A DNA stretch of 64,000 bases. Origin: Escherichia coli (GTDB lineage: Bacteria > Pseudomonadota > Gammaproteobacteria > Enterobacterales > Enterobacteriaceae). The notes beneath the pieces are model-generated. The model searched no databases, was not told the origin of the DNA, and saw only the letters and a program-made list of their open reading frames with translations. A program made the translations under genes and the position numbers. Numbering within the stretch: the stretch's first letter is position 1; every line of letters begins with the position of its first letter. The DNA is taken from the NCBI RefSeq assembly GCF_048403405.1, contig NZ_CP183129.1; one strand, written 5' to 3'. Below, piece by piece: positions 2,624 to 50,401 of the stretch.

Positions 2624-2659
2624 CAATAAAAAAGGCCCCCCGATTTGGGAGGCCTTATT
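2624..2659 (-). promoter_or_regulatory. pheA attenuator terminator hairpin (AGGCCTCCC...GGGGGGCCT followed by U-run) between pheL and pheA
   Basis: GC-rich inverted repeat with T-run on the minus strand, placed between leader peptide ORF and pheA start. Confidence 0.7.
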
Positions 2660-2702
2660 GTTCGTCTTCGCATTCTGTTTCACACGACGAAACGCCTCCC
2701 AT

Positions 2703-2750
2703 TCAGGGGAAGGTAAAAAAGAATGCGAAGAAAAACGGTGTGTGTTTCAT
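2703..2750 (-). CDS. pheL: pheA leader peptide, 15 aa, [15 protein letters not shown] (7 Phe codons)
   Basis: Minus-strand ATGAAACACACACCGTTTTTCTTCGCATTCTTTTTTACCTTCCCCTGA read directly; too short for the ORF track. Confidence 0.85.
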   Translation of the reverse strand: [15 protein letters not shown]

Positions 2751-2804
2751 GTTTGTTTCCTTAAGTGACTTCAGTACAGTACCCGTACTGTTTTCACGCT
2801 GTCA

Positions 2805-6046: not shown

Positions 6047-6108
6047 CCTAAAGAATCAAGACGATCCGGTACGCGTGATTTTCTTTTCACATTAATCTGG
6101 TCAATAAC

Positions 6109-6136
6109 CTTGAATAATTGAGGGATGACCTCATTT
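6109..6136 (+). promoter_or_regulatory. Candidate sigma-32 heat-shock promoter of clpB (-35 CTTGAA, -10-like GACCTCATTTA)
   Basis: Match to sigma-32 consensus CTTGAAA / CCCCATnT upstream of clpB; clpB is a known heat-shock gene. Confidence 0.5.
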
Positions 6137-6175
6137 AATCTCCAGTAGCAACTTTGATCCGTTATGGGAGGAGTT

Positions 6176-8749
6176 ATGCGTCTGGATCGTCTTACTAATA
6201 AATTCCAGCTTGCTCTTGCCGATGCCCAATCACTTGCACTCGGGCACGACAACCAATTCATCGAACCACTTCATTTAATGAGCGCCCTGCTGAATCAGGA
6301 AGGGGGTTCGGTTAGTCCTTTATTAACATCCGCTGGCATTAATGCTGGCCAGTTGCGCACAGATATCAATCAGGCATTAAATCGTTTACCGCAGGTTGAA
6401 GGTACTGGTGGTGATGTCCAGCCATCACAGGATCTGGTGCGCGTTCTTAATCTTTGCGACAAGCTGGCGCAAAAACGTGGTGATAACTTTATCTCGTCAG
6501 AACTGTTCGTTCTGGCGGCACTTGAGTCTCGCGGCACGCTGGCCGACATCCTGAAAGCAGCAGGGGCGACCACCGCCAACATTACTCAAGCGATTGAACA
6601 AATGCGTGGAGGTGAAAGCGTGAACGATCAAGGTGCTGAAGACCAACGTCAGGCTTTGAAAAAATATACCATCGACCTTACCGAACGAGCCGAACAAGGC
6701 AAACTTGATCCGGTGATTGGTCGTGATGAAGAAATTCGCCGTACCATTCAGGTACTGCAACGTCGTACTAAAAATAACCCGGTACTGATTGGTGAACCAG
6801 GCGTCGGTAAAACTGCCATCGTTGAAGGTCTGGCGCAGCGTATTATCAACGGCGAAGTGCCGGAAGGGTTGAAAGGCCGCCGCGTACTGGCGCTGGATAT
6901 GGGCGCGCTGGTGGCTGGGGCGAAATATCGCGGTGAGTTTGAAGAACGTTTAAAAGGCGTGCTTAACGATCTTGCCAAACAGGAAGGCAACGTCATCCTG
7001 TTTATCGACGAATTACATACCATGGTCGGCGCGGGTAAAGCCGATGGCGCAATGGACGCCGGAAACATGCTGAAACCGGCGCTGGCGCGTGGTGAATTGC
7101 ACTGCGTAGGTGCCACGACGCTTGACGAATATCGCCAGTACATCGAAAAAGATGCTGCGCTGGAACGTCGTTTCCAGAAAGTGTTTGTTGCCGAGCCTTC
7201 TGTTGAAGACACCATTGCTATTCTGCGTGGCTTAAAAGAACGTTACGAACTGCACCACCATGTGCAAATTACTGACCCGGCAATTGTTGCAGCGGCGACG
7301 TTGTCTCATCGCTACATTGCTGACCGTCAGCTGCCGGATAAAGCCATCGACCTGATCGATGAAGCAGCATCCAGCATTCGTATGCAGATTGACTCAAAAC
7401 CAGAAGAACTCGACCGACTCGATCGTCGTATCATCCAGCTCAAACTGGAACAACAGGCGTTAATGAAAGAGTCTGATGAAGCCAGTAAAAAACGCCTGGA
7501 TATGCTCAACGAAGAACTGAGCGACAAAGAACGTCAGTACTCCGAGTTAGAAGAAGAGTGGAAAGCAGAGAAAGCATCGCTTTCTGGTACACAGACCATT
7601 AAAGCGGAACTGGAACAGGCGAAAATCGCTATTGAACAGGCTCGCCGTGTGGGTGACCTGGCGCGGATGTCTGAACTGCAATACGGCAAAATCCCGGAAC
7701 TGGAAAAGCAACTGGAAGCCGCAACGCAGCTCGAAGGCAAAACTATGCGTCTGTTGCGTAATAAAGTGACCGACGCCGAAATTGCTGAAGTGCTGGCGCG
7801 TTGGACGGGGATTCCGGTTTCTCGCATGATGGAAAGCGAGCGCGAAAAACTGCTGCGTATGGAGCAAGAGCTGCACCATCGCGTTATTGGTCAGAACGAA
7901 GCGGTTGATGCGGTATCTAACGCTATTCGTCGTAGCCGTGCGGGGCTGGCGGATCCAAATCGCCCGATTGGTTCATTCCTGTTCCTCGGCCCAACGGGTG
8001 TGGGGAAAACTGAGCTTTGTAAGGCGCTGGCGAACTTTATGTTTGATAGCGACGAGGCGATGGTCCGTATCGATATGTCCGAGTTTATGGAGAAACATTC
8101 GGTGTCTCGTCTGGTTGGTGCGCCTCCGGGATATGTTGGTTATGAAGAAGGTGGCTACCTGACCGAAGCTGTGCGTCGTCGTCCGTATTCCGTTATCCTG
8201 CTGGATGAAGTGGAAAAAGCGCATCCGGATGTCTTCAACATTCTGTTGCAGGTACTGGATGATGGGCGTCTGACTGACGGGCAGGGGAGAACGGTCGACT
8301 TCCGTAATACGGTTGTCATTATGACCTCTAACCTCGGTTCCGATTTGATTCAGGAACGCTTCGGTGAACTGGATTATGCGCACATGAAAGAGCTGGTGCT
8401 CGGTGTGGTAAGCCATAACTTCCGTCCGGAATTCATTAACCGTATTGATGAAGTGGTGGTCTTCCATCCGCTGGGTGAACAGCACATTGCCTCGATTGCG
8501 CAGATTCAGTTGAAACGTCTGTACAAACGTCTGGAAGAACGTGGTTATGAAATCCACATTTCTGACGAGGCGCTGAAACTGCTGAGCGAGAACGGTTACG
8601 ATCCGGTCTATGGCGCACGTCCTCTGAAACGTGCAATTCAGCAGCAGATTGAAAACCCGCTGGCACAGCAAATACTGTCTGGTGAATTGGTTCCGGGTAA
8701 AGTGATTCGCCTGGAAGTTAATGAAGACCGGATTGTCGCCGTCCAGTAA
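6176..8749 (+). CDS. clpB: Disaggregase chaperone ClpB (Hsp100, two AAA+ modules), 857 aa
   Basis: ORF track 6164..8749; start moved to ATG 6176 ([10 protein letters not shown]) with GGGAGGAG SD upstream; two Walker A motifs GEPGVGKT and GPTGVGKT. Confidence 0.95.
6606..6622 (+). other. Internal translation start inside clpB (SD-like GGAGGTGA then GTG codon 149) producing N-terminally truncated ClpB
   Basis: In-frame GTG at 6620..6622 preceded by GGAGGTGA; internal start at Val149 is established for E. coli ClpB. Confidence 0.6.
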
Positions 8750-9192: not shown

Positions 9193-10734
<1,542 letters not shown>

Positions 10735-10819
10735 CCTTAAAGAACTGTGCTTTGCAGTGCTCACACAGATTGTCTGATAGAAAGTGAAAAGCAAGGCGTC
10801 TTGCGAAGCAGACTGATAC

Positions 10820-10895
10820 GTCCCCTTCGTCTAGAGGCCCAGGACACCGCCCTTTCACGGCGGTAACAGGGGTTCGAATCCCCTAGGGGACGCCA
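10820..10895 (+). tRNA. gltW: tRNA-Glu (spacer tRNA, 76 nt with encoded CCA)
   Basis: GTCCCCTTCGTCTAGAGGCCCAGGACACCGCCCTTTCACGGCGGTAACAGGGGTTCGAATCCCCTAGGGGACGCCA read directly. Confidence 0.95.
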
Positions 10896-11088
10896 CTTGC
10901 TGGTTTGTGAGTGAAAGTCGCCGACCTTAATATCTCAAAACTCATCTTCGGGTGATGTTTGAGATATTTGCTCTTTAAAAATCTGGATCAAGCTGAAAAT
11001 TGAAACACTGAACAACGAAAGTTGTTCGTGAGTCTCTCAAATTTTCGCAACACGATGATGGATCGAAAGAAACATCTTCGGGTTGTGA

Positions 11089-13992
<2,904 letters not shown>

Positions 13993-14085
13993 ACAACGCC
14001 GAAGATGTTTTGGCGGATTGAGAGAAGATTTTCAGCCTGATACAGATTAAATCAGAACGCAGAAGCGGTCTGATGAAACAGAATT

Positions 14086-14205
14086 TGCCTGGCGGCCTTA
14101 GCGCGGTGGTCCCACCTGATCCCATGCCGAACTCAGAAGTGAAACGCCGTAGCGCCGATGGTAGTGTGGGGTCTCCCCATGCGAGAGTAGGGAACTGCCA
14201 GGCAT
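14086..14205 (+). rRNA. rrfG: 5S ribosomal RNA (120 nt)
   Basis: TGCCTGGCGGCC...CTGCCAGGCAT read directly. Confidence 0.96.
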
Positions 14206-32803: not shown

Positions 32804-33759
32804 TGAAGCAACTTTGGTTTGCCATGTCATTAGTGACAGGTAGCCTGTTATTCTCTGCTAACGCCTCGGCCACTCCCGCGTCCGGGGCGTTATTACAGCA
32901 GATGAACCTGGCCAGTCAGTCACTGAATTACGAGCTGTCATTCATCAGCATCAATAAACAGGGTGTTGAGTCTCTGCGTTATCGACATGCACGCCTCGAT
33001 AACCGTCCTCTTGCACAATTGTTGCAAATGGATGGCCCGCGCCGGGAAGTGGTACAGCGCGGCAATGAAATCAGCTATTTTGAACCGGGACTTGAACCGT
33101 TCACGCTTAATGGCGATTACATTGTTGATTCTCTACCATCGCTCATCTATACCGATTTCAAACGCCTTTCTCCTTACTACGACTTTATCTCCGTCGGGCG
33201 CACGCGTATTGCTGATCGTCTTTGCGAAGTCATTCGTGTGGTTGCCCGAGATGGTACACGCTACAGCTACATCGTGTGGATGGACACCGAATCGAAATTA
33301 CCGATGCGGGTTGATCTCCTTGATCGCGATGGTGAAACGCTGGAACAATTTCGCGTGATTGCTTTTAATGTCAATCAGGATATCAGCAGCAGTATGCAGA
33401 CGTTGGCGAAGGCAAATTTGCCGCCGTTGCTTTCTGTTCCTGTAGGTGAAAAAGCTAAATTCAGCTGGACGCCAACCTGGTTGCCACAGGGTTTTAGCGA
33501 AGTTTCCAGTAGTCGACGTCCGCTACCGACGATGGACAACATGCCTATCGAATCACGTCTCTATTCCGACGGATTATTCAGCTTTTCGGTAAACGTTAAC
33601 CGCGCTACGCCATCGAGCACCGATCAGATGTTGCGCACCGGACGCAGAACCGTCAGTACAAGCGTACGTGATAACGCCGAAATCACCATTGTCGGTGAAC
33701 TGCCGCCGCAAACGGCGAAACGCATTGCCGAGAATATTAAGTTCGGGGCAGCGCAATGA
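32803..33759 (+). CDS. rseB: Sigma-E regulatory protein RseB (periplasmic), 318 aa
   Basis: ORF 32803..33759; signal peptide; start overlaps rseA stop (TAATG). Confidence 0.93.
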   Translation: MKQLWFAMSLVTGSLLFSANASATPASGALLQQMNLASQSLNYELSFISINKQGVESLRYRHARLDNRPLAQLLQMDGPRREVVQRGNEISYFEPGLEPFTLNGDYIVDSLPSLIYTDFKRLSPYYDFISVGRTRIADRLCEVIRVVARDGTRYSYIVWMDTESKLPMRVDLLDRDGETLEQFRVIAFNVNQDISSSMQTLAKANLPPLLSVPVGEKAKFSWTPTWLPQGFSEVSSSRRPLPTMDNMPIESRLYSDGLFSFSVNVNRATPSSTDQMLRTGRRTVSTSVRDNAEITIVGELPPQTAKRIAENIKFGAAQ

Positions 33760-34235
33760 TCAAAGAGTGGGCTACCGTCATCTCCTGGGAAAACGGGCAG
33801 GCGCTGGTTAGTTGTGATGTTAAAGCCTCATGCAGCAGCTGCGCTTCACGCGCCGGTTGCGGTAGCCGCGTGTTGAATAAACTTGGCCCGCAAACCACGC
33901 ATACCATTGTCGTACCCTGTGATGAGCCGTTAGTGCCGGGGCAAAAAGTAGAATTAGGAATCGCCGAAGGCAGCCTGCTTAGCTCCGCATTACTGGTTTA
34001 TATGTCGCCGTTGATGGGACTATTCCTCATCGCTTCACTATTTCAGCTACTCTTTGCTTCAGATATTGCAGCATTATGCGGTGCGATTCTCGGTGGCGTT
34101 GGTGGATTCCTGATTGCACGTGGCTGCTCTCGAAAGTTTGCTGCCCGGTCTGAATGGCAACCGATCATCTTAAGCGTGGCCTTGCCGCCTGGCCTTGTGC
34201 GATTTGAAACATCTTCGGAAGACGCGAGCCAGTGA
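33756..34235 (+). CDS. rseC: Sigma-E regulatory protein RseC, 159 aa
   Basis: ORF 33756..34235; overlaps rseB stop by 4 nt; membrane protein. Confidence 0.9.
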   Translation: MIKEWATVISWENGQALVSCDVKASCSSCASRAGCGSRVLNKLGPQTTHTIVVPCDEPLVPGQKVELGIAEGSLLSSALLVYMSPLMGLFLIASLFQLLFASDIAALCGAILGGVGGFLIARGCSRKFAARSEWQPIILSVALPPGLVRFETSSEDASQ

Positions 34236-34432
34236 TTTCACTGGCTTTGTTGCATTTTGCATAACAAATGCGAGGACGTTTCCAGATACCACAATCCATA
34301 CGGTATGAACATTTCCTCGCCTCAATGTTGTAGTGTAGAATGCGGCGTTTCTATTAATACAGACGTTAAGCTCAGAACAGCGACTTCTAAAAGCCTGGTT
34401 AACCGGGCATTAAGGCACAATAATCATACTTT

Positions 34433-36232
34433 ATGAAGAATATACGTAACTTTTCGATCATAGCTCACATTGACCACGGTAAATCGACGCTGTCTGACCG
34501 TATTATCCAGATCTGCGGTGGCCTGTCTGACCGTGAAATGGAGGCGCAGGTTCTCGATTCCATGGATCTTGAGCGTGAGCGTGGCATTACCATCAAAGCG
34601 CAAAGCGTGACGCTGGACTACAAAGCGTCTGACGGCGAAACCTATCAGCTTAACTTTATCGACACCCCGGGCCACGTTGACTTCTCTTATGAAGTTTCTC
34701 GTTCGCTGGCTGCCTGTGAAGGTGCATTGCTGGTGGTCGACGCCGGGCAGGGCGTAGAAGCGCAAACCCTGGCAAACTGCTACACCGCCATGGAAATGGA
34801 TCTCGAAGTGGTGCCGGTACTGAACAAGATTGACCTGCCGGCAGCCGATCCTGAACGCGTGGCGGAAGAAATTGAAGATATTGTCGGCATCGACGCCACC
34901 GACGCGGTGCGCTGTTCAGCGAAAACCGGCGTTGGCGTACAGGACGTTCTCGAACGTCTGGTGCGCGACATTCCGCCGCCGGAAGGCGATCCGGAAGGCC
35001 CGTTGCAGGCACTCATTATCGACTCCTGGTTCGACAACTACCTGGGCGTTGTTTCACTTATCCGTATTAAAAACGGCACCCTGCGTAAGGGCGACAAAGT
35101 GAAAGTCATGAGTACCGGGCAGACCTATAACGCCGACCGTCTGGGCATCTTCACGCCAAAACAGGTTGACCGTACTGAACTGAAATGCGGCGAAGTAGGC
35201 TGGCTGGTATGTGCGATTAAAGATATCCACGGCGCTCCAGTAGGCGATACCTTAACGCTGGCGCGTAATCCGGCAGAAAAGGCGCTGCCTGGCTTTAAGA
35301 AAGTCAAACCGCAGGTATACGCCGGTCTGTTCCCGGTAAGTTCCGACGACTATGAAGCCTTCCGTGATGCGCTGGGTAAACTCAGCCTGAACGATGCCTC
35401 ACTGTTCTATGAGCCGGAAAGCTCAAGCGCGCTGGGCTTTGGTTTCCGCTGCGGCTTCCTCGGTCTGCTGCACATGGAGATCATCCAGGAACGTCTGGAA
35501 CGTGAATACGATCTGGATCTGATTACCACTGCGCCGACCGTAGTGTATGAAGTTGAAACCACGTCAAGAGAAGTTATCTACGTCGACAGCCCATCCAAGC
35601 TGCCAGCGGTAAATAACATCTACGAACTGCGCGAGCCGATTGCAGAATGTCACATGCTGCTGCCGCAGGCATATCTCGGCAACGTTATTACGCTGTGCGT
35701 AGAAAAACGCGGCGTGCAGACCAATATGGTTTACCACGGTAATCAGGTGGCGCTGACGTACGAGATCCCGATGGCGGAAGTGGTGCTCGATTTCTTCGAT
35801 CGCCTGAAATCTACCTCGCGTGGTTATGCGTCTCTGGATTACAACTTCAAACGCTTCCAGGCGTCCGACATGGTACGTGTAGACGTATTAATCAACGGTG
35901 AACGTGTTGATGCGCTGGCGTTGATCACCCACCGTGATAATTCGCAAAACCGCGGTCGCGAGCTGGTGGAGAAGATGAAAGATCTAATCCCACGCCAGCA
36001 GTTTGATATCGCTATTCAGGCAGCGATTGGTACGCACATCATTGCGCGCTCCACCGTGAAACAGCTGCGTAAAAACGTACTGGCTAAATGTTATGGCGGC
36101 GATATCAGCCGTAAGAAAAAGCTGCTGCAGAAGCAGAAAGAAGGTAAGAAACGCATGAAGCAGATCGGTAACGTCGAGCTGCCGCAGGAAGCGTTCCTCG
36201 CCATTCTGCACGTCGGCAAAGACAACAAATAA
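34433..36232 (+). CDS. lepA: Elongation factor 4 (LepA) GTPase, 599 aa
   Basis: ORF 34433..36232; [10 protein letters not shown]1 motif and conserved C-terminus. Confidence 0.95.
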
Positions 36233-36247: not shown

Positions 36248-37222
36248 ATGGCGAATATGTTTGCCCTGATTCTGGTGATTGCCACACTAGTGACGGGCAT
36301 TTTATGGTGCGTGGATAAATTCTTTTTCGCACCTAAACGGCGGGAACGTCAGGCAGCGGCGCAGGCGGCTGCCGGTGACTCACTGGATAAAGCAACACTG
36401 AAAAAGGTTGCGCCGAAGCCTGGCTGGCTGGAAACCGGTGCTTCTGTTTTTCCGGTGCTGGCTATCGTATTGATTGTGCGTTCGTTTATTTATGAACCGT
36501 TCCAGATCCCGTCAGGTTCGATGATGCCGACTCTGTTAATCGGTGATTTTATTCTGGTAGAGAAGTTTGCTTATGGCATTAAAGATCCTATCTACCAGAA
36601 AACGCTGATCGAAACCGGTCATCCGAAACGCGGCGATATCGTGGTCTTTAAATATCCGGAAGATCCAAAGCTTGATTACATCAAGCGCGCGGTGGGTTTA
36701 CCGGGCGATAAAGTCACTTACGATCCGGTCTCAAAAGAGCTGACGATTCAACCGGGATGCAGTTCCGGCCAGGCGTGTGAAAACGCGCTGCCGGTCACCT
36801 ACTCAAACGTGGAACCGAGCGATTTCGTTCAGACCTTCTCACGCCGTAATGGTGGGGAAGCGACCAGCGGATTCTTTGAAGTGCCGAAAAACGAAACCAA
36901 AGAAAATGGAATTCGTCTTTCCGAGCGTAAAGAGACACTGGGTGATGTGACGCACCGCATTCTGACAGTGCCGATTGCGCAGGATCAGGTGGGGATGTAT
37001 TACCAGCAGCCAGGGCAACAACTGGCAACCTGGATTGTTCCTCCGGGACAATACTTCATGATGGGTGACAACCGCGACAACAGCGCGGACAGCCGTTACT
37101 GGGGCTTTGTGCCGGAAGCGAATCTGGTCGGTCGGGCAACGGCTATCTGGATGAGCTTCGATAAGCAAGAAGGCGAATGGCCGACAGGTGTGCGCTTAAG
37201 TCGCATTGGCGGCATCCATTAA
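36248..37222 (+). CDS. lepB: Signal peptidase I (leader peptidase), 324 aa
   Basis: ORF 36248..37222; catalytic SGSMMPTL motif. Confidence 0.95.
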   Translation: MANMFALILVIATLVTGILWCVDKFFFAPKRRERQAAAQAAAGDSLDKATLKKVAPKPGWLETGASVFPVLAIVLIVRSFIYEPFQIPSGSMMPTLLIGDFILVEKFAYGIKDPIYQKTLIETGHPKRGDIVVFKYPEDPKLDYIKRAVGLPGDKVTYDPVSKELTIQPGCSSGQACENALPVTYSNVEPSDFVQTFSRRNGGEATSGFFEVPKNETKENGIRLSERKETLGDVTHRILTVPIAQDQVGMYYQQPGQQLATWIVPPGQYFMMGDNRDNSADSRYWGFVPEANLVGRATAIWMSFDKQEGEWPTGVRLSRIGGIH

Positions 37223-37234
37223 TAGCCCATCTTC

Positions 37235-37269
37235 ATTCACGTTGTCGCCGTTATGGCGACAACGTGAAT
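37235..37269 (+). terminator. Perfect 15-bp-stem hairpin after lepB (ATTCACGTTGTCGCC-GTTAT-GGCGACAACGTGAAT)
   Basis: Inverted repeat read directly 13 bp after the lepB stop; followed by an A/T-rich stretch. Confidence 0.65.
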
Positions 37270-37367
37270 TATTTATGAGATAAATCTCCCGTGGCTAACG
37301 ACATCCCCCGTCGTTGTGTATAGAATATTCCCCCGAAGTTTAAGGTTGGCACCTCCAGGTTGCCACG

Positions 37368-37461
37368 GCACACGAAACAGCGTTGGTCCCCATATACCGG
37401 TAAACTGAAACTGCAGCGAAGCAGTTAGCAGAACCATGTATATCAGGTCTGTTTCGTGTGC
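37368..37461 (+). promoter_or_regulatory. rnc 5' leader long-range stem (GCACACGAAACAG pairs with CTGTTTCGTGTGC); candidate RNase III autoregulatory processing structure
   Basis: 13-nt perfect complementarity read directly; rnc leader cleavage by RNase III is established. Confidence 0.55.
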
Positions 37462-37464
37462 TGA

Positions 37465-39077
<1,613 letters not shown>

Positions 39078-39088
39078 GAGTAACTCCG

Positions 39089-39817
39089 ATGGAAGGCTGG
39101 CAGCGCGCATTTGTCCTGCATAGTCGCCCGTGGAGCGAAACCAGCCTGATGCTGGACGTCTTCACGGAGGAATCGGGTCGCGTGCGTCTGGTTGCCAAAG
39201 GCGCACGCTCTAAACGCTCTACTCTGAAAGGTGCATTACAGCCTTTCACCCCTCTCTTGCTACGTTTCGGCGGGCGTGGCGAAGTCAAAACGCTGCGCAG
39301 TGCTGAAGCCGTCTCGCTGGCGCTGCCATTAAGCGGTATCACGCTTTACAGCGGTCTGTACATCAACGAACTTCTCTCCCGCGTACTGGAATACGAGACG
39401 CGCTTCTCTGAACTCTTTTTCGATTACTTGCACTGCATTCAGTCTCTTGCAGGTGCCACTGGTACGCCAGAACCCGCGCTGCGCCGCTTTGAACTGGCAC
39501 TGCTCGGGCATCTGGGCTATGGCGTCAATTTTACCCATTGTGCGGGTAGCGGCGAGCCGGTAGATGACACCATGACGTATCGTTATCGCGAAGAAAAAGG
39601 GTTTATCGCAAGCGTCGTTATCGACAATAAAACGTTCACCGGAAGGCAGTTAAAAGCGTTAAACGCGCGGGAATTTCCTGACGCAGACACACTGCGCGCC
39701 GCGAAACGCTTTACCCGCATGGCGCTTAAGCCGTATCTTGGCGGTAAACCATTAAAGAGCAGGGAACTGTTCCGGCAGTTTATGCCTAAGCGAACGGTGA
39801 AAACACATTATGAATGA
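39089..39817 (+). CDS. recO: DNA repair protein RecO, 242 aa
   Basis: ORF 39089..39817; translation. Confidence 0.93.
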
Positions 39818-40940: not shown

Positions 40941-40963
40941 AATAATACCGTTCTCTTTAAAAA

Positions 40964-41004
40964 GTAAAACCCCCGAACTGGTAAGGAACAGGGGGTTTAC
41001 TTTA
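40964..41004 (+). terminator. Intrinsic terminator after acpS (GTAAAACCCCC...GGGGGTTTAC plus T-rich tail)
   Basis: Inverted repeat read directly. Confidence 0.7.
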
Positions 41005-41359
41005 CAACTTTAATTTTGTGCAGCACGCACCCTCAACAAGAGCGATTATGGATCAGGGCGGTTATCTTTTACAAGCAACTTGCAATCTTTAGCATAAAAA
41101 CTCGAGCCTTTACGAAGAAAACAATATTGATGGAAAGATTAACGTGACCGCCAATTCGGAAGTACATTAAAATTGGCTTCGTTATTGGCGATTTTGCTGT
41201 GCTTTATACCATGCCACAGAATTCCCCCATTGAAACGAGTGGTGTCGTCAAAGCTCTGGTGTGGAGTGCAGCATGCACCCTCAATAACTCGCACGTTCAG
41301 TTTTGGGGAGATGTAAGGGCTAATCTGAACGGCTGCATTCCTTGTTTAAGGAAAAACGA

Positions 41360-50216: not shown

Positions 50217-50401
50217 AGTGGCTCATTCACCGACTTATGTCAGCCCCTTCGGGACGTGCTACATAAAATACGAATGACGCACAACAAGGTGCCTGCCGTC
50301 CAACTTCTGATATCAGCGTAGCTATATCAACCATCGGGCGAAACGTCGAGTTAGGCACCGCCTTATTCCATAACAAAGCCGGGTAATTCCCGGCTTTGTT
50401 G
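50217..50401 (+). ncRNA. glmY: Small regulatory RNA GlmY (controls glmS via GlmZ/RapZ)
   Basis: Begins AGTGGCTCATTCACCGACTTATGTCAGCCCCTTCGGGACG, ends at intrinsic terminator AAAGCCGGGTAATTCCCGGCTTTGTTGT; position between purL and glrK; ends approximate. Confidence 0.8.

What the first reader, a model, noticed from the sequence alone, without database searches (positions are those of the whole stretch)
37235..37461. Perfect long hairpin after lepB and long-range stem in the rnc leader
A 15-bp perfect stem (37235..37269) follows lepB, and the rnc 5' region contains 13-nt segments (37368..37380 and 37449..37461) that are exactly complementary. This is consistent with an RNase III autoregulatory processing structure in the rnc-era-recO transcript.
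Basis: partly seen in the sequence, partly recalled or inferred. Interest (0 to 1): 0.3.

Follow-up and report, generated by a model that had tools for sequence, protein, structure and literature searches.

The report
Known rncO leader plus lepB terminator
Both inverted repeats are real but ordinary: one looks like the transcription terminator of the E. coli lepA-lepB operon, and the other is the base of rncO, the long-known leader hairpin through which RNase III cuts its own mRNA to limit its own production.

Summary
The window is Escherichia coli chromosome: lepA-lepB, then rnc-era-recO-pdxJ-acpS. Both repeats sit exactly where reported. They are the only perfect inverted repeats of 13 nt or more (arms up to 100 nt apart) in the 64 kb; about 0.09 are expected by chance.

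The 13-nt complement (37368-37380 / 37449-37461) is the core of a 15-bp lower stem of stem-loop II of rncO. Rfam RF00552 matches 37335-37549 full length at 258.8 bits (threshold 43). rncO is the published RNase III autoregulatory "operator" (Bardwell 1989; Matsunaga 1996).

The 15-bp hairpin (37235-37269) is a separate element. It starts 12 nt after the lepB stop, is followed by a U-rich tail, and ends 66 nt upstream of the rnc transcription start (37335, from the published 160-nt 5'UTR). It is therefore not in the leader made from the rnc promoter. Its structure is kept across about 69 of 74 distinct Enterobacteriaceae sequences, with many compensatory changes. That fits an intrinsic terminator for lepAB.

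Folding the lepB hairpin into the same RNase III structure is not supported.

Verdict: already known, low interest. Minor extra: the apical ~68 nt of stem II is missing in most genera, while the lower stem is almost invariant.

The parts
36248..37222 (+). lepB (signal peptidase I), last gene of the lepA-lepB operon; stop codon TAA at 37220-37222
   Evidence: NCBIfam NF008114 at 673.6 bits, full length; RefSeq annotation
37235..37269 (+).
   Evidence: -25.9 kcal/mol, z = -6.4. Flagged as terminator-like. Structure kept with compensatory changes in about 69 of 74 distinct Enterobacteriaceae sequences
37270..37277 (+). U-rich tail after the hairpin (TATTTATG). Read with the last stem bases it is AATTATTT, which is conserved in relatives even where the stem sequence is entirely different
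37298..37326 (+). rnc promoter: -35 ACGACA (37298-37303), 17-nt spacer, -10 TAGAAT (37321-37326), inside the conserved block CTAACGACATCC...GTATAGAATAT
   Evidence: Consensus scan; block conserved in all loci whose aligned segment reaches it; position fits a start at 37335
37335..37549 (+). rncO, the RNase III autoregulatory leader. It comprises the 160-nt 5'UTR (37335-37494) plus the first 55 nt of rnc
   Evidence: Rfam RF00552 at 258.8 bits (gathering 43), model 1-214 of 214. The 160-nt 5'UTR length comes from PMC10037077 and PMC4191395
37347..37365 (+). rncO stem-loop I (7 pairs). It abuts stem II with no unpaired base between them
   Evidence: Rfam structure; 5 of 7 pairs show changes on both sides across relatives
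37366..37380 (+).
   Evidence: 15 pairs, 97.6% of cells paired, 11 pairs invariant, one compensatory pair (37379/37450, A-U vs C-G)
37381..37448 (+). Apical, irregular part of stem-loop II (internal loops plus upper helices). Lineage-variable, and missing in most Enterobacteriaceae genera
   Evidence: gaps in 47-49 of 73 distinct sequences; rncO matches span 162-237 nt
37449..37463 (+). 37463 is nt 129 of the 5'UTR, the end of the fragment used as an in vivo RNase III substrate
   Evidence: PMC10037077
37495..38175 (+). rnc (RNase III). Its stop overlaps the era start (38172)
   Evidence: TIGR02191 at 247.8 bits; annotation
37515..37534 (+). rncO stem-loop III (8 pairs), inside rnc codons 7-14
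   Evidence: Rfam structure; 95.7% of cells paired; third-codon-position entropy 0.25 for codons 1-19 against 0.87 for the rest of rnc

Best explanation
These are two adjacent, functionally separate RNA elements of the E. coli lepB-rnc intergenic region.

(1) 37235-37269 plus its U-rich tail is the intrinsic (Rho-independent) terminator that ends the lepA-lepB transcript. The nascent RNA folds into a 15-bp hairpin directly ahead of UUAUUU, and RNA polymerase releases the transcript.

(2) About 30 nt further on lies the rnc promoter, which starts transcription at 37335. The first 215 nt of that mRNA are rncO: stem-loop I, a long irregular stem-loop II whose 15-bp base is the reported 13-nt complement, a single-stranded linker carrying the ribosome-binding region and AUG, and stem-loop III in the first codons. 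According to the literature, RNase III (the product of rnc) cleaves stem-loop II. This removes the protective 5' structure and leaves a monophosphorylated, unstructured 5' end that RNase E attacks. The rnc-era-recO mRNA then decays faster, giving negative feedback. The feedback is relieved when abundant substrates such as pre-rRNA titrate the enzyme.

Shown here: the sequences, the folds, the Rfam match, the genes, the position relative to promoter and start, and conservation and covariation in relatives. Taken from the literature: the cleavage and the decay mechanism. Inferred: termination at the lepB hairpin.
For: The window is E. coli: the 411-nt query is 100% identical to many complete genomes and covers at least 80% in 5424 of 5426 genomes, annotated lepB | rnc.

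rncO:
- Full-length RF00552 match at 258.8 bits against a gathering score of 43.
- MFE and centroid folds reproduce stems I and II.
- RF00552 passes its gathering score in all 20 diverse Enterobacteriaceae loci tested, at 149-231 bits.
- On 73 distinct leader sequences, 90.7% of cells pair, against 35-44% when partners are slid by 1-3 columns. Stem I has 5 of 7 pairs with changes on both sides. The lower stem of II is 97.6% paired and has one A-U/C-G switch, 29 vs 37 sequences.
- Literature: RNase III cleaves a hairpin in its own 5'UTR, which leads to RNase E-dependent decay (PMC5371410; PMC3867540; PMC8708148; PMC10037077). The 5'UTR is 160 nt, and nt 1-129 suffice as an in vivo RNase III substrate (-160 also). 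Position 129 is 37463, exactly the end of stem II.

Terminator:
- The hairpin starts 12 nt after the lepB stop, and it is the only terminator-like site found in 36900-37800.
- Its stability is -25.9 kcal/mol.
- In relatives the stem sequence changes freely (for example TTCACGCTGCCG/CGGCAGCGTGAA, TATGCGGGGGC/GCCTCCGCATA, CGGGGTGCGGA/TCCGCACCCCG), pairing is kept, and the tail AATTATTT is retained 27-31 nt upstream of the -35 motif.
- Even within E. coli, the GTDB representative carries a compensatory C-G to U-A change (L002).
Against: No RNA-end data could be consulted here. Termination at the lepB hairpin and the exact RNase III cut position in stem II were therefore not verified. The primary papers (Bardwell 1989, Matsunaga 1996) are not in the held library, and the supplements of Altuvia 2018 are not held. 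The U-tract is interrupted (UAUUUAUG; 5 T in 8), so some read-through into rnc is possible. The lower stem II offers little covariation, because 11 of 15 pairs never vary; its pairing is supported mostly by conservation and thermodynamics rather than compensatory change. Seven loci have no hairpin at the aligned position, so the element is not universal: no comparable hairpin was seen in L041, L079, L063, L065 and L066, while L067 and L078 carry different GC-rich hairpins.
Confidence: 0.93

Rival explanations
1. The lepB hairpin is itself an RNase III processing site. It would act on a lepA-lepB-rnc read-through transcript as part of one combined autoregulatory structure with the leader stem.
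For: It is a perfect 15-bp double-stranded RNA helix on the same strand, 100 nt upstream of rncO. The imperfect U-tract may allow some read-through.
Against: It lies upstream of the rnc promoter and start and outside the Rfam rncO model. From my own knowledge, 15 bp is shorter than the roughly two helical turns typical of E. coli RNase III substrates. It is always followed by a conserved U-rich tail and sits right after a stop codon, which is terminator anatomy. Five loci keep a full rncO (L041, L079, L063) or an aligned leader (L065, L066) with no comparable hairpin.
Confidence: 0.05
2. The 15-bp palindrome is a DNA-level element, such as an operator for a dimeric regulator of the rnc promoter or a recombination or REP-like site, and not an RNA hairpin.
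For: It is a perfect DNA palindrome that ends 29 nt upstream of the -35 hexamer (37298) and folds equally well on both strands (-26.5 kcal/mol on the minus strand).
Against: Across genera the sequence is not conserved but the pairing is, with several Watson-Crick pair types and G-U pairs at nearly every stem position. That is the signature of selection on RNA structure, not on a protein-binding DNA sequence. G-U pairs (for example GTCGTC/GGCGGC arms) work only in RNA. The U-rich tail exists only on the + strand. The element occurs once per genome (median 1 place), so it is not a dispersed repeat.
Confidence: 0.02
3. One or both inverted repeats are chance matches with no function.
For: None beyond the general frequency of short inverted repeats in genomes.
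Against: About 0.085 such repeats are expected per 64 kb and two are observed within 230 nt. Fold z-scores are -5 to -6.4. Both structures are conserved across more than 25 genera.
Confidence: 0.005

Closest known systems
rncO (Rfam RF00552), the RNase III post-transcriptional 'operator' of the E. coli rnc-era-recO operon (Bardwell et al. 1989 EMBO J 8:3401; Matsunaga, Simons and Simons 1996 RNA 2:1228)
   Same: It is this very element. There is a full-length match at 258.8 bits, and the locus, strand, organism, 160-nt 5'UTR and three stem-loops all agree. The reported 13-nt complement is the base of stem-loop II.
   Different: Nothing differs for the leader stem.
Intrinsic (Rho-independent) transcription terminators
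   Same: A GC-containing hairpin of -25.9 kcal/mol is immediately followed by a U-rich tract, 12 nt after the stop codon of the last gene of an operon. Structure, not sequence, is conserved in relatives.
   Different: The stem is unusually long and perfect (15 bp), and the U-tract is interrupted by A (UUAUUUAU). Termination itself was not measured here.
pnp leader RNase III site (rpsO-pnp), another autoregulatory 5'UTR hairpin cut by RNase III in E. coli
   Same: It uses the same logic: RNase III cleavage of a long leader hairpin starts decay of the downstream mRNA (PMC5371410; PMC8708148).
   Different: It is a different gene and sequence. In pnp the feedback comes from PNPase acting on the RNase III-processed leader, whereas in rnc the cutting enzyme is itself the regulated product.

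Membership tests
rncO (RF00552) | Sequence and structure match to the curated covariance model above its gathering score | tested here: met
   258.8 bits against 43, model positions 1-214 of 214, E = 1e-61; found again in the whole-window scan
rncO (RF00552) | Location: the 5' end of the rnc mRNA, same strand, running into the first codons of rnc | tested here: met
   37335-37549 on the + strand; rnc ATG at 37495. The published 160-nt 5'UTR puts the start at 37335
rncO (RF00552) | Three stem-loops (I, II, III), with the long stem-loop II as the RNase III target | tested here: met
   Folds. On 73 distinct sequences, helix I is 89.6% paired with 5 of 7 compensatory pairs, lower II is 97.6% paired, and III is 95.7% paired; slid controls give 35-44%. 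That stem II is the target comes from the literature and my recollection of Matsunaga 1996
rncO (RF00552) | RNase III-dependent cleavage in the leader and resulting destabilisation of rnc mRNA (negative autoregulation) | not testable with these tools
   Documented for E. coli, whose sequence is identical to the window, in papers cited. The exact cut position could not be retrieved
Intrinsic terminator | Stable GC-containing hairpin followed within 0-2 nt by a U-rich tract on the transcribed strand | tested here: met
   (16 pairs counted, 8 G-C, tail TATTTATGAG); -25.9 kcal/mol; the minus strand has no T-rich tail
Intrinsic terminator | Placed at the end of a transcription unit, with an independent promoter for the next gene | tested here: met
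   It lies 12 nt after the lepB stop. The rnc promoter-like site is at 37298-37326 and the start at 37335
Intrinsic terminator | Hairpin maintained by compensatory substitutions in relatives | tested here: met
   About 69 of 74 distinct sequences keep a hairpin (median -23.1 kcal/mol), with 2-6 standard pair types (including G-U) at the stem positions 3-14 nt from the tail and a conserved AATTATTT tail
Intrinsic terminator | Transcript 3' ends generated at the U-tract | not testable with these tools
   No 3'-end mapping data could be reached; a literature search for a lepB terminator found nothing relevant
RNase III substrate (for the lepB hairpin) | Double-stranded helix of about two turns (~20 bp or more) present in a transcript, with RNase III-dependent ends | tested here: inconclusive
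   The helix is 15 bp, shorter than typical substrates by my own knowledge. Cleavage data are not available

The most novel reading that the evidence does not exclude
The invariant 15-bp lower stem of stem-loop II, possibly stacked coaxially on the directly abutting 7-bp stem I to give about 22 bp, may be the whole conserved RNase III recognition module of rncO. The ~68-nt apical segment present in E. coli, Salmonella and some Citrobacter and Raoultella would then be a dispensable, lineage-specific insertion. The near-total sequence invariance of both arms (11 of 15 pairs never change in 73 distinct sequences, while stem I and the lepB terminator covary freely) would reflect sequence-specific readout by RNase III or another factor, not mere pairing.
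Probability: 0.15. Interest if true: 0.3.

Novelty: already known. Interest (0 to 1): 0.08.

Why it matters
This matters little as a discovery. RNase III autoregulation through the rnc leader has been a textbook case of post-transcriptional feedback since 1989-1996, has an Rfam family, and is used as a standard in vivo RNase III substrate. The value of this check is tidying up. It separates two neighbouring hairpins that a sequence-only reading merged, assigns each a coordinate-level role, and shows that both are under structural selection across Enterobacteriaceae. The one mildly useful by-product is comparative: the part of stem II that E. coli studies work with is mostly absent in other genera, while the 15-bp base is almost invariant. 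That narrows where the conserved recognition determinants must lie.

Tried and rejected
1. I tried to read the primary papers to get the exact RNase III cut site. Matsunaga 1996 (PMC1369450), Bardwell 1989 (PMC401487) and Court 2013 (PMC6311387) are not held. Supplements of Altuvia 2018 and of the 2023 MBE paper are not held. The cut position is therefore not given here.

2. A literature search for a lepB terminator or read-through into rnc returned nothing relevant.

3. The minus-strand rncO hit (23.9 bits, below the gathering score of 43) and a mir-2001 hit on the lepB hairpin (20.1 bits against 74) are by-products of helix symmetry, and I rejected them.

4. The small inverted repeat ACGAC/GTCGT inside the promoter (37298-37302 / 37310-37314; folded) was considered as a possible operator or RNA hairpin. 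I rejected it because its right half is not conserved in relatives.

5. Minus-strand ORFs across the leader (37273-37551, 92 aa; 37340-37477, 45 aa) were not pursued. They overlap a region fully explained by rncO, and nothing is annotated there in RefSeq.

6. My first regex for finding the lepB stop failed for 26 loci. I replaced it by anchoring on the conserved promoter motif.

Full report
**Observation**

The sequence at 36900-37800 contains both features exactly as reported.
- IR1: ATTCACGTTGTCGCC (37235-37249), loop GTTAT, GGCGACAACGTGAAT (37255-37269). This is a perfect 15-bp stem.
- IR2: GCACACGAAACAG (37368-37380) and CTGTTTCGTGTGC (37449-37461), 13 nt exactly complementary with 68 nt between them.

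The repeat finder reports only these two inverted repeats in 37100-37600. In the whole 64-kb window they are the only perfect inverted repeats of >=13 nt with arms <=100 nt apart. First-order Markov simulations of the window give 0.085 per 64 kb.

**Context**

The 411 nt around the finding are 100% identical to many complete E. coli chromosomes. They cover at least 80% of the query in 5424 of 5426 genomes, once per genome at the median, and are annotated lepB | rnc. NCBIfam equivalog models and RefSeq annotation give:
- lepA 34433-36232
- lepB 36248-37222
- rnc 37495-38175
- era 38172-39077
- recO 39089-39817
- then pdxJ and acpS

All are on the + strand. Nothing is annotated in the 272-nt lepB-rnc spacer.

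**The leader stem is rncO**

Rfam family RF00552 (rncO) matches 37335-37549 on the + strand over its full length (1-214 of 214) at 258.8 bits, against a gathering score of 43 (repeated). Mapping the model's structure onto the window gives:
- stem-loop I: 37347-37365
- stem-loop II: 37366-37463
- stem-loop III: 37515-37534, inside rnc codons 7-14

It is extended by C37366-G37463 and G37367-U37462.

The thermodynamic fold of 37366-37463 alone reproduces this structure (-40.9 kcal/mol, z = -5.5). Two papers state that the rnc 5'UTR is 160 nt (PMC10037077; PMC4191395 uses -160 as the transcript start). That places the transcription start at 37335, the first base of the Rfam model. It lies 8 nt downstream of a promoter-like site (-35 ACGACA at 37298, 17-nt spacer, -10 TAGAAT ending at 37326). 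The fragment "nucleotides 1-129" that PMC10037077 uses as an in vivo RNase III substrate ends at 37463, the last base of stem II.

RNase III cleaves an irregular hairpin in its own 5'UTR. The new monophosphorylated, unstructured 5' end is attacked by RNase E and the rnc-era mRNA decays. This negative feedback can be titrated by abundant substrates such as pre-rRNA (PMC5371410; PMC3867540; PMC8708148; PMC10037077; all cite Bardwell 1989 and Matsunaga 1996).

**Comparative evidence for rncO**

A genome-contig scan with the RNase III protein returned 80 loci from more than 25 Enterobacteriaceae genera. RF00552 passes its gathering score in all 20 diverse loci I tested, at 149-231 bits.

I aligned the leader of the window and 78 loci (A1) and counted pairs for the Rfam structure:
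- Overall, 90.7% of cells pair, against 35-44% when partners are slid by 1-3 columns.
- Stem I has changes on both sides at 5 of 7 pairs.
- The lower stem of II is 97.6% paired. Eleven of its 15 pairs never vary. One pair (37379/37450) switches between A-U (29 sequences) and C-G (37 sequences).
- Stem III is 95.7% paired but nearly invariant.

The RNA-level constraint reaches into the gene. Third-codon-position entropy is 0.25 for rnc codons 1-19 against 0.87 for the rest.

**The hairpin after lepB is a different element**

It begins 12 nt after the lepB stop codon and ends at 37269. That is 29 nt upstream of the -35 hexamer and 66 nt upstream of the rnc transcription start. It is therefore absent from the leader transcribed from the rnc promoter and lies outside the Rfam model.

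It is the only terminator-like site the scan finds in 36900-37800 (stem plus tail TATTTATGAG). It is very stable (-25.9 kcal/mol, z = -6.4). Only the + strand has a T-rich tail.

In the relatives, a hairpin occupies the same place in about 69 of 74 distinct sequences (median -23.1 kcal/mol). The stem sequence changes freely while pairing is kept. Examples are TTCACGCTGCCG/CGGCAGCGTGAA, TATGCGGGGGC/GCCTCCGCATA, CGGGGTGCGGA/TCCGCACCCCG and GGGTTGCAGC/GCTGCAACCC. The stem positions 3-14 nt from the tail each show two to six standard pair types, including G-U pairs that work only in RNA. The tail AATTATTT is retained at a fixed 27-31 nt from the conserved AACGAC (-35) motif. Even the GTDB E. coli representative differs from the window by a compensatory C-G to U-A change (L002).

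This is the signature of selection on an RNA hairpin plus U-tract, that is, an intrinsic terminator of lepAB. Termination itself is inferred, because I could reach no 3'-end data.

**Rivals**

- The lepB hairpin could be an RNase III site on a read-through transcript. This cannot be excluded without end-mapping, but several points argue against it: its position, its terminator anatomy, its 15-bp length, and lineages that keep rncO while lacking the hairpin (L041, L079, L063).
- A DNA-level operator is contradicted by the pattern of structure, not sequence, conservation.
- Chance is contradicted.

**Comparison with what is known, and verdict**

The leader stem is not merely like rncO; it is rncO in its type organism. 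The lepB hairpin is an ordinary intrinsic-terminator-like element. It is not supported where it treats the lepB hairpin as part of the same RNase III structure. Novelty: already known. Interest: low.

**What is left open**

The exact RNase III cut position could not be retrieved.

One comparative point may go slightly beyond the classic work. The ~68-nt apical portion of stem II (37381-37448) is absent in most genera, with gaps in 47-49 of 73 distinct sequences. rncO matches range from 162 to 237 nt. Enterobacter cloacae folds into just the 15-bp stem with a small loop. Meanwhile the lower stem is almost invariant on both arms. This suggests that the conserved recognition determinants lie in the lower stem, possibly stacked on the abutting stem I. 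That is an inference and would need in vitro cleavage of short-form leaders to test.

Noticed in passing
window 37381-37448; A1 columns ~119-217: The apical ~68 nt of rncO stem-loop II is lineage-variable. It is present, with divergent sequence, in Escherichia, Salmonella, several Citrobacter, Phytobacter/Kosakonia S29 and Raoultella-like loci (where it is longer still). It is absent in most other genera (Enterobacter, Kluyvera, Pluralibacter, Trabulsiella, Atlantibacter and others), where stem II is only the 15-bp lower stem with a ~17-nt loop.
   Followed up: partly
window 37366-37380 and 37449-37463: Both arms of the lower stem II are almost sequence-invariant across 73 distinct Enterobacteriaceae sequences (mean column entropy 0.15 and 0.12, against 0.84 for stem I). 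Only one pair switches (37379/37450, A-U vs C-G). This is more conservation than pairing alone would need.
   Followed up: partly
window 37495-37570 and 38140-38175: Synonymous (third-position) variation in rnc is strongly suppressed in the first ~19-25 codons (entropy 0.25 against 0.87 for the rest), which fits rncO extending into the coding region. It is suppressed again in the last ~10 codons, where rnc overlaps the era start (ATGA at 38172-38175).
   Followed up: partly
window 37280-37330: The rnc promoter block CTAACGACATCC...GTATAGAATATTCCCCCGAAG is conserved across all genera examined, and so is an A/T-rich ATAAAT-like motif about 10 nt upstream of it. The small inverted repeat ACGAC/GTCGT (37298-37302 / 37310-37314) is not conserved on its right half.
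   Followed up: partly
L041, L079, L063, L065, L066, L067, L078 (upstream of rnc): Several loci lack the lepB hairpin at the aligned position. In Entomohabitans (L041) and Franconibacter (L079) the lepB stop is followed almost directly by the rnc promoter, giving a spacer of only 170-171 nt. No comparable hairpin was seen in Atlantibacter (L063, L065, L066). L067 and Siccibacter turicensis (L078) carry different GC-rich hairpins. This raises the question of how lepAB transcription ends there.
   Followed up: no
L069 and L067 (record titles): L069 is titled Chryseobacterium sp. 18061 but encodes an Enterobacteriaceae-type RNase III (97% identity) with a typical rncO leader, so contamination or mislabelling is likely. 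L067 is titled Citrobacter freundii M-21, but its leader groups with the Atlantibacter sequences.
   Followed up: no
window 33720-34551 (-), 40961-41037 (-), 50217-50364 (+), 6057-6195 (+), 2626-2751 (-), 9193-14203 (+): The whole-window Rfam scan also finds AsrC (antisense of rseC, overlapping the start of lepA), the ohsC antitoxin sRNA just after acpS, GlmY, RyfD, the Phe leader and a complete rRNA operon with a tRNA. All are known E. coli features.
   Followed up: no
L075 3609-3700 (+): In the Klebsiella oxytoca locus, Rfam reports AaHKsRNA22 (48.5 bits against a gathering score of 39.8) about 1.6 kb downstream of the rnc start. Judged by the window's spacing (era ends at +1583, recO starts at +1595), that is around the era/recO junction. 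No such hit occurs in the window.
   Followed up: no
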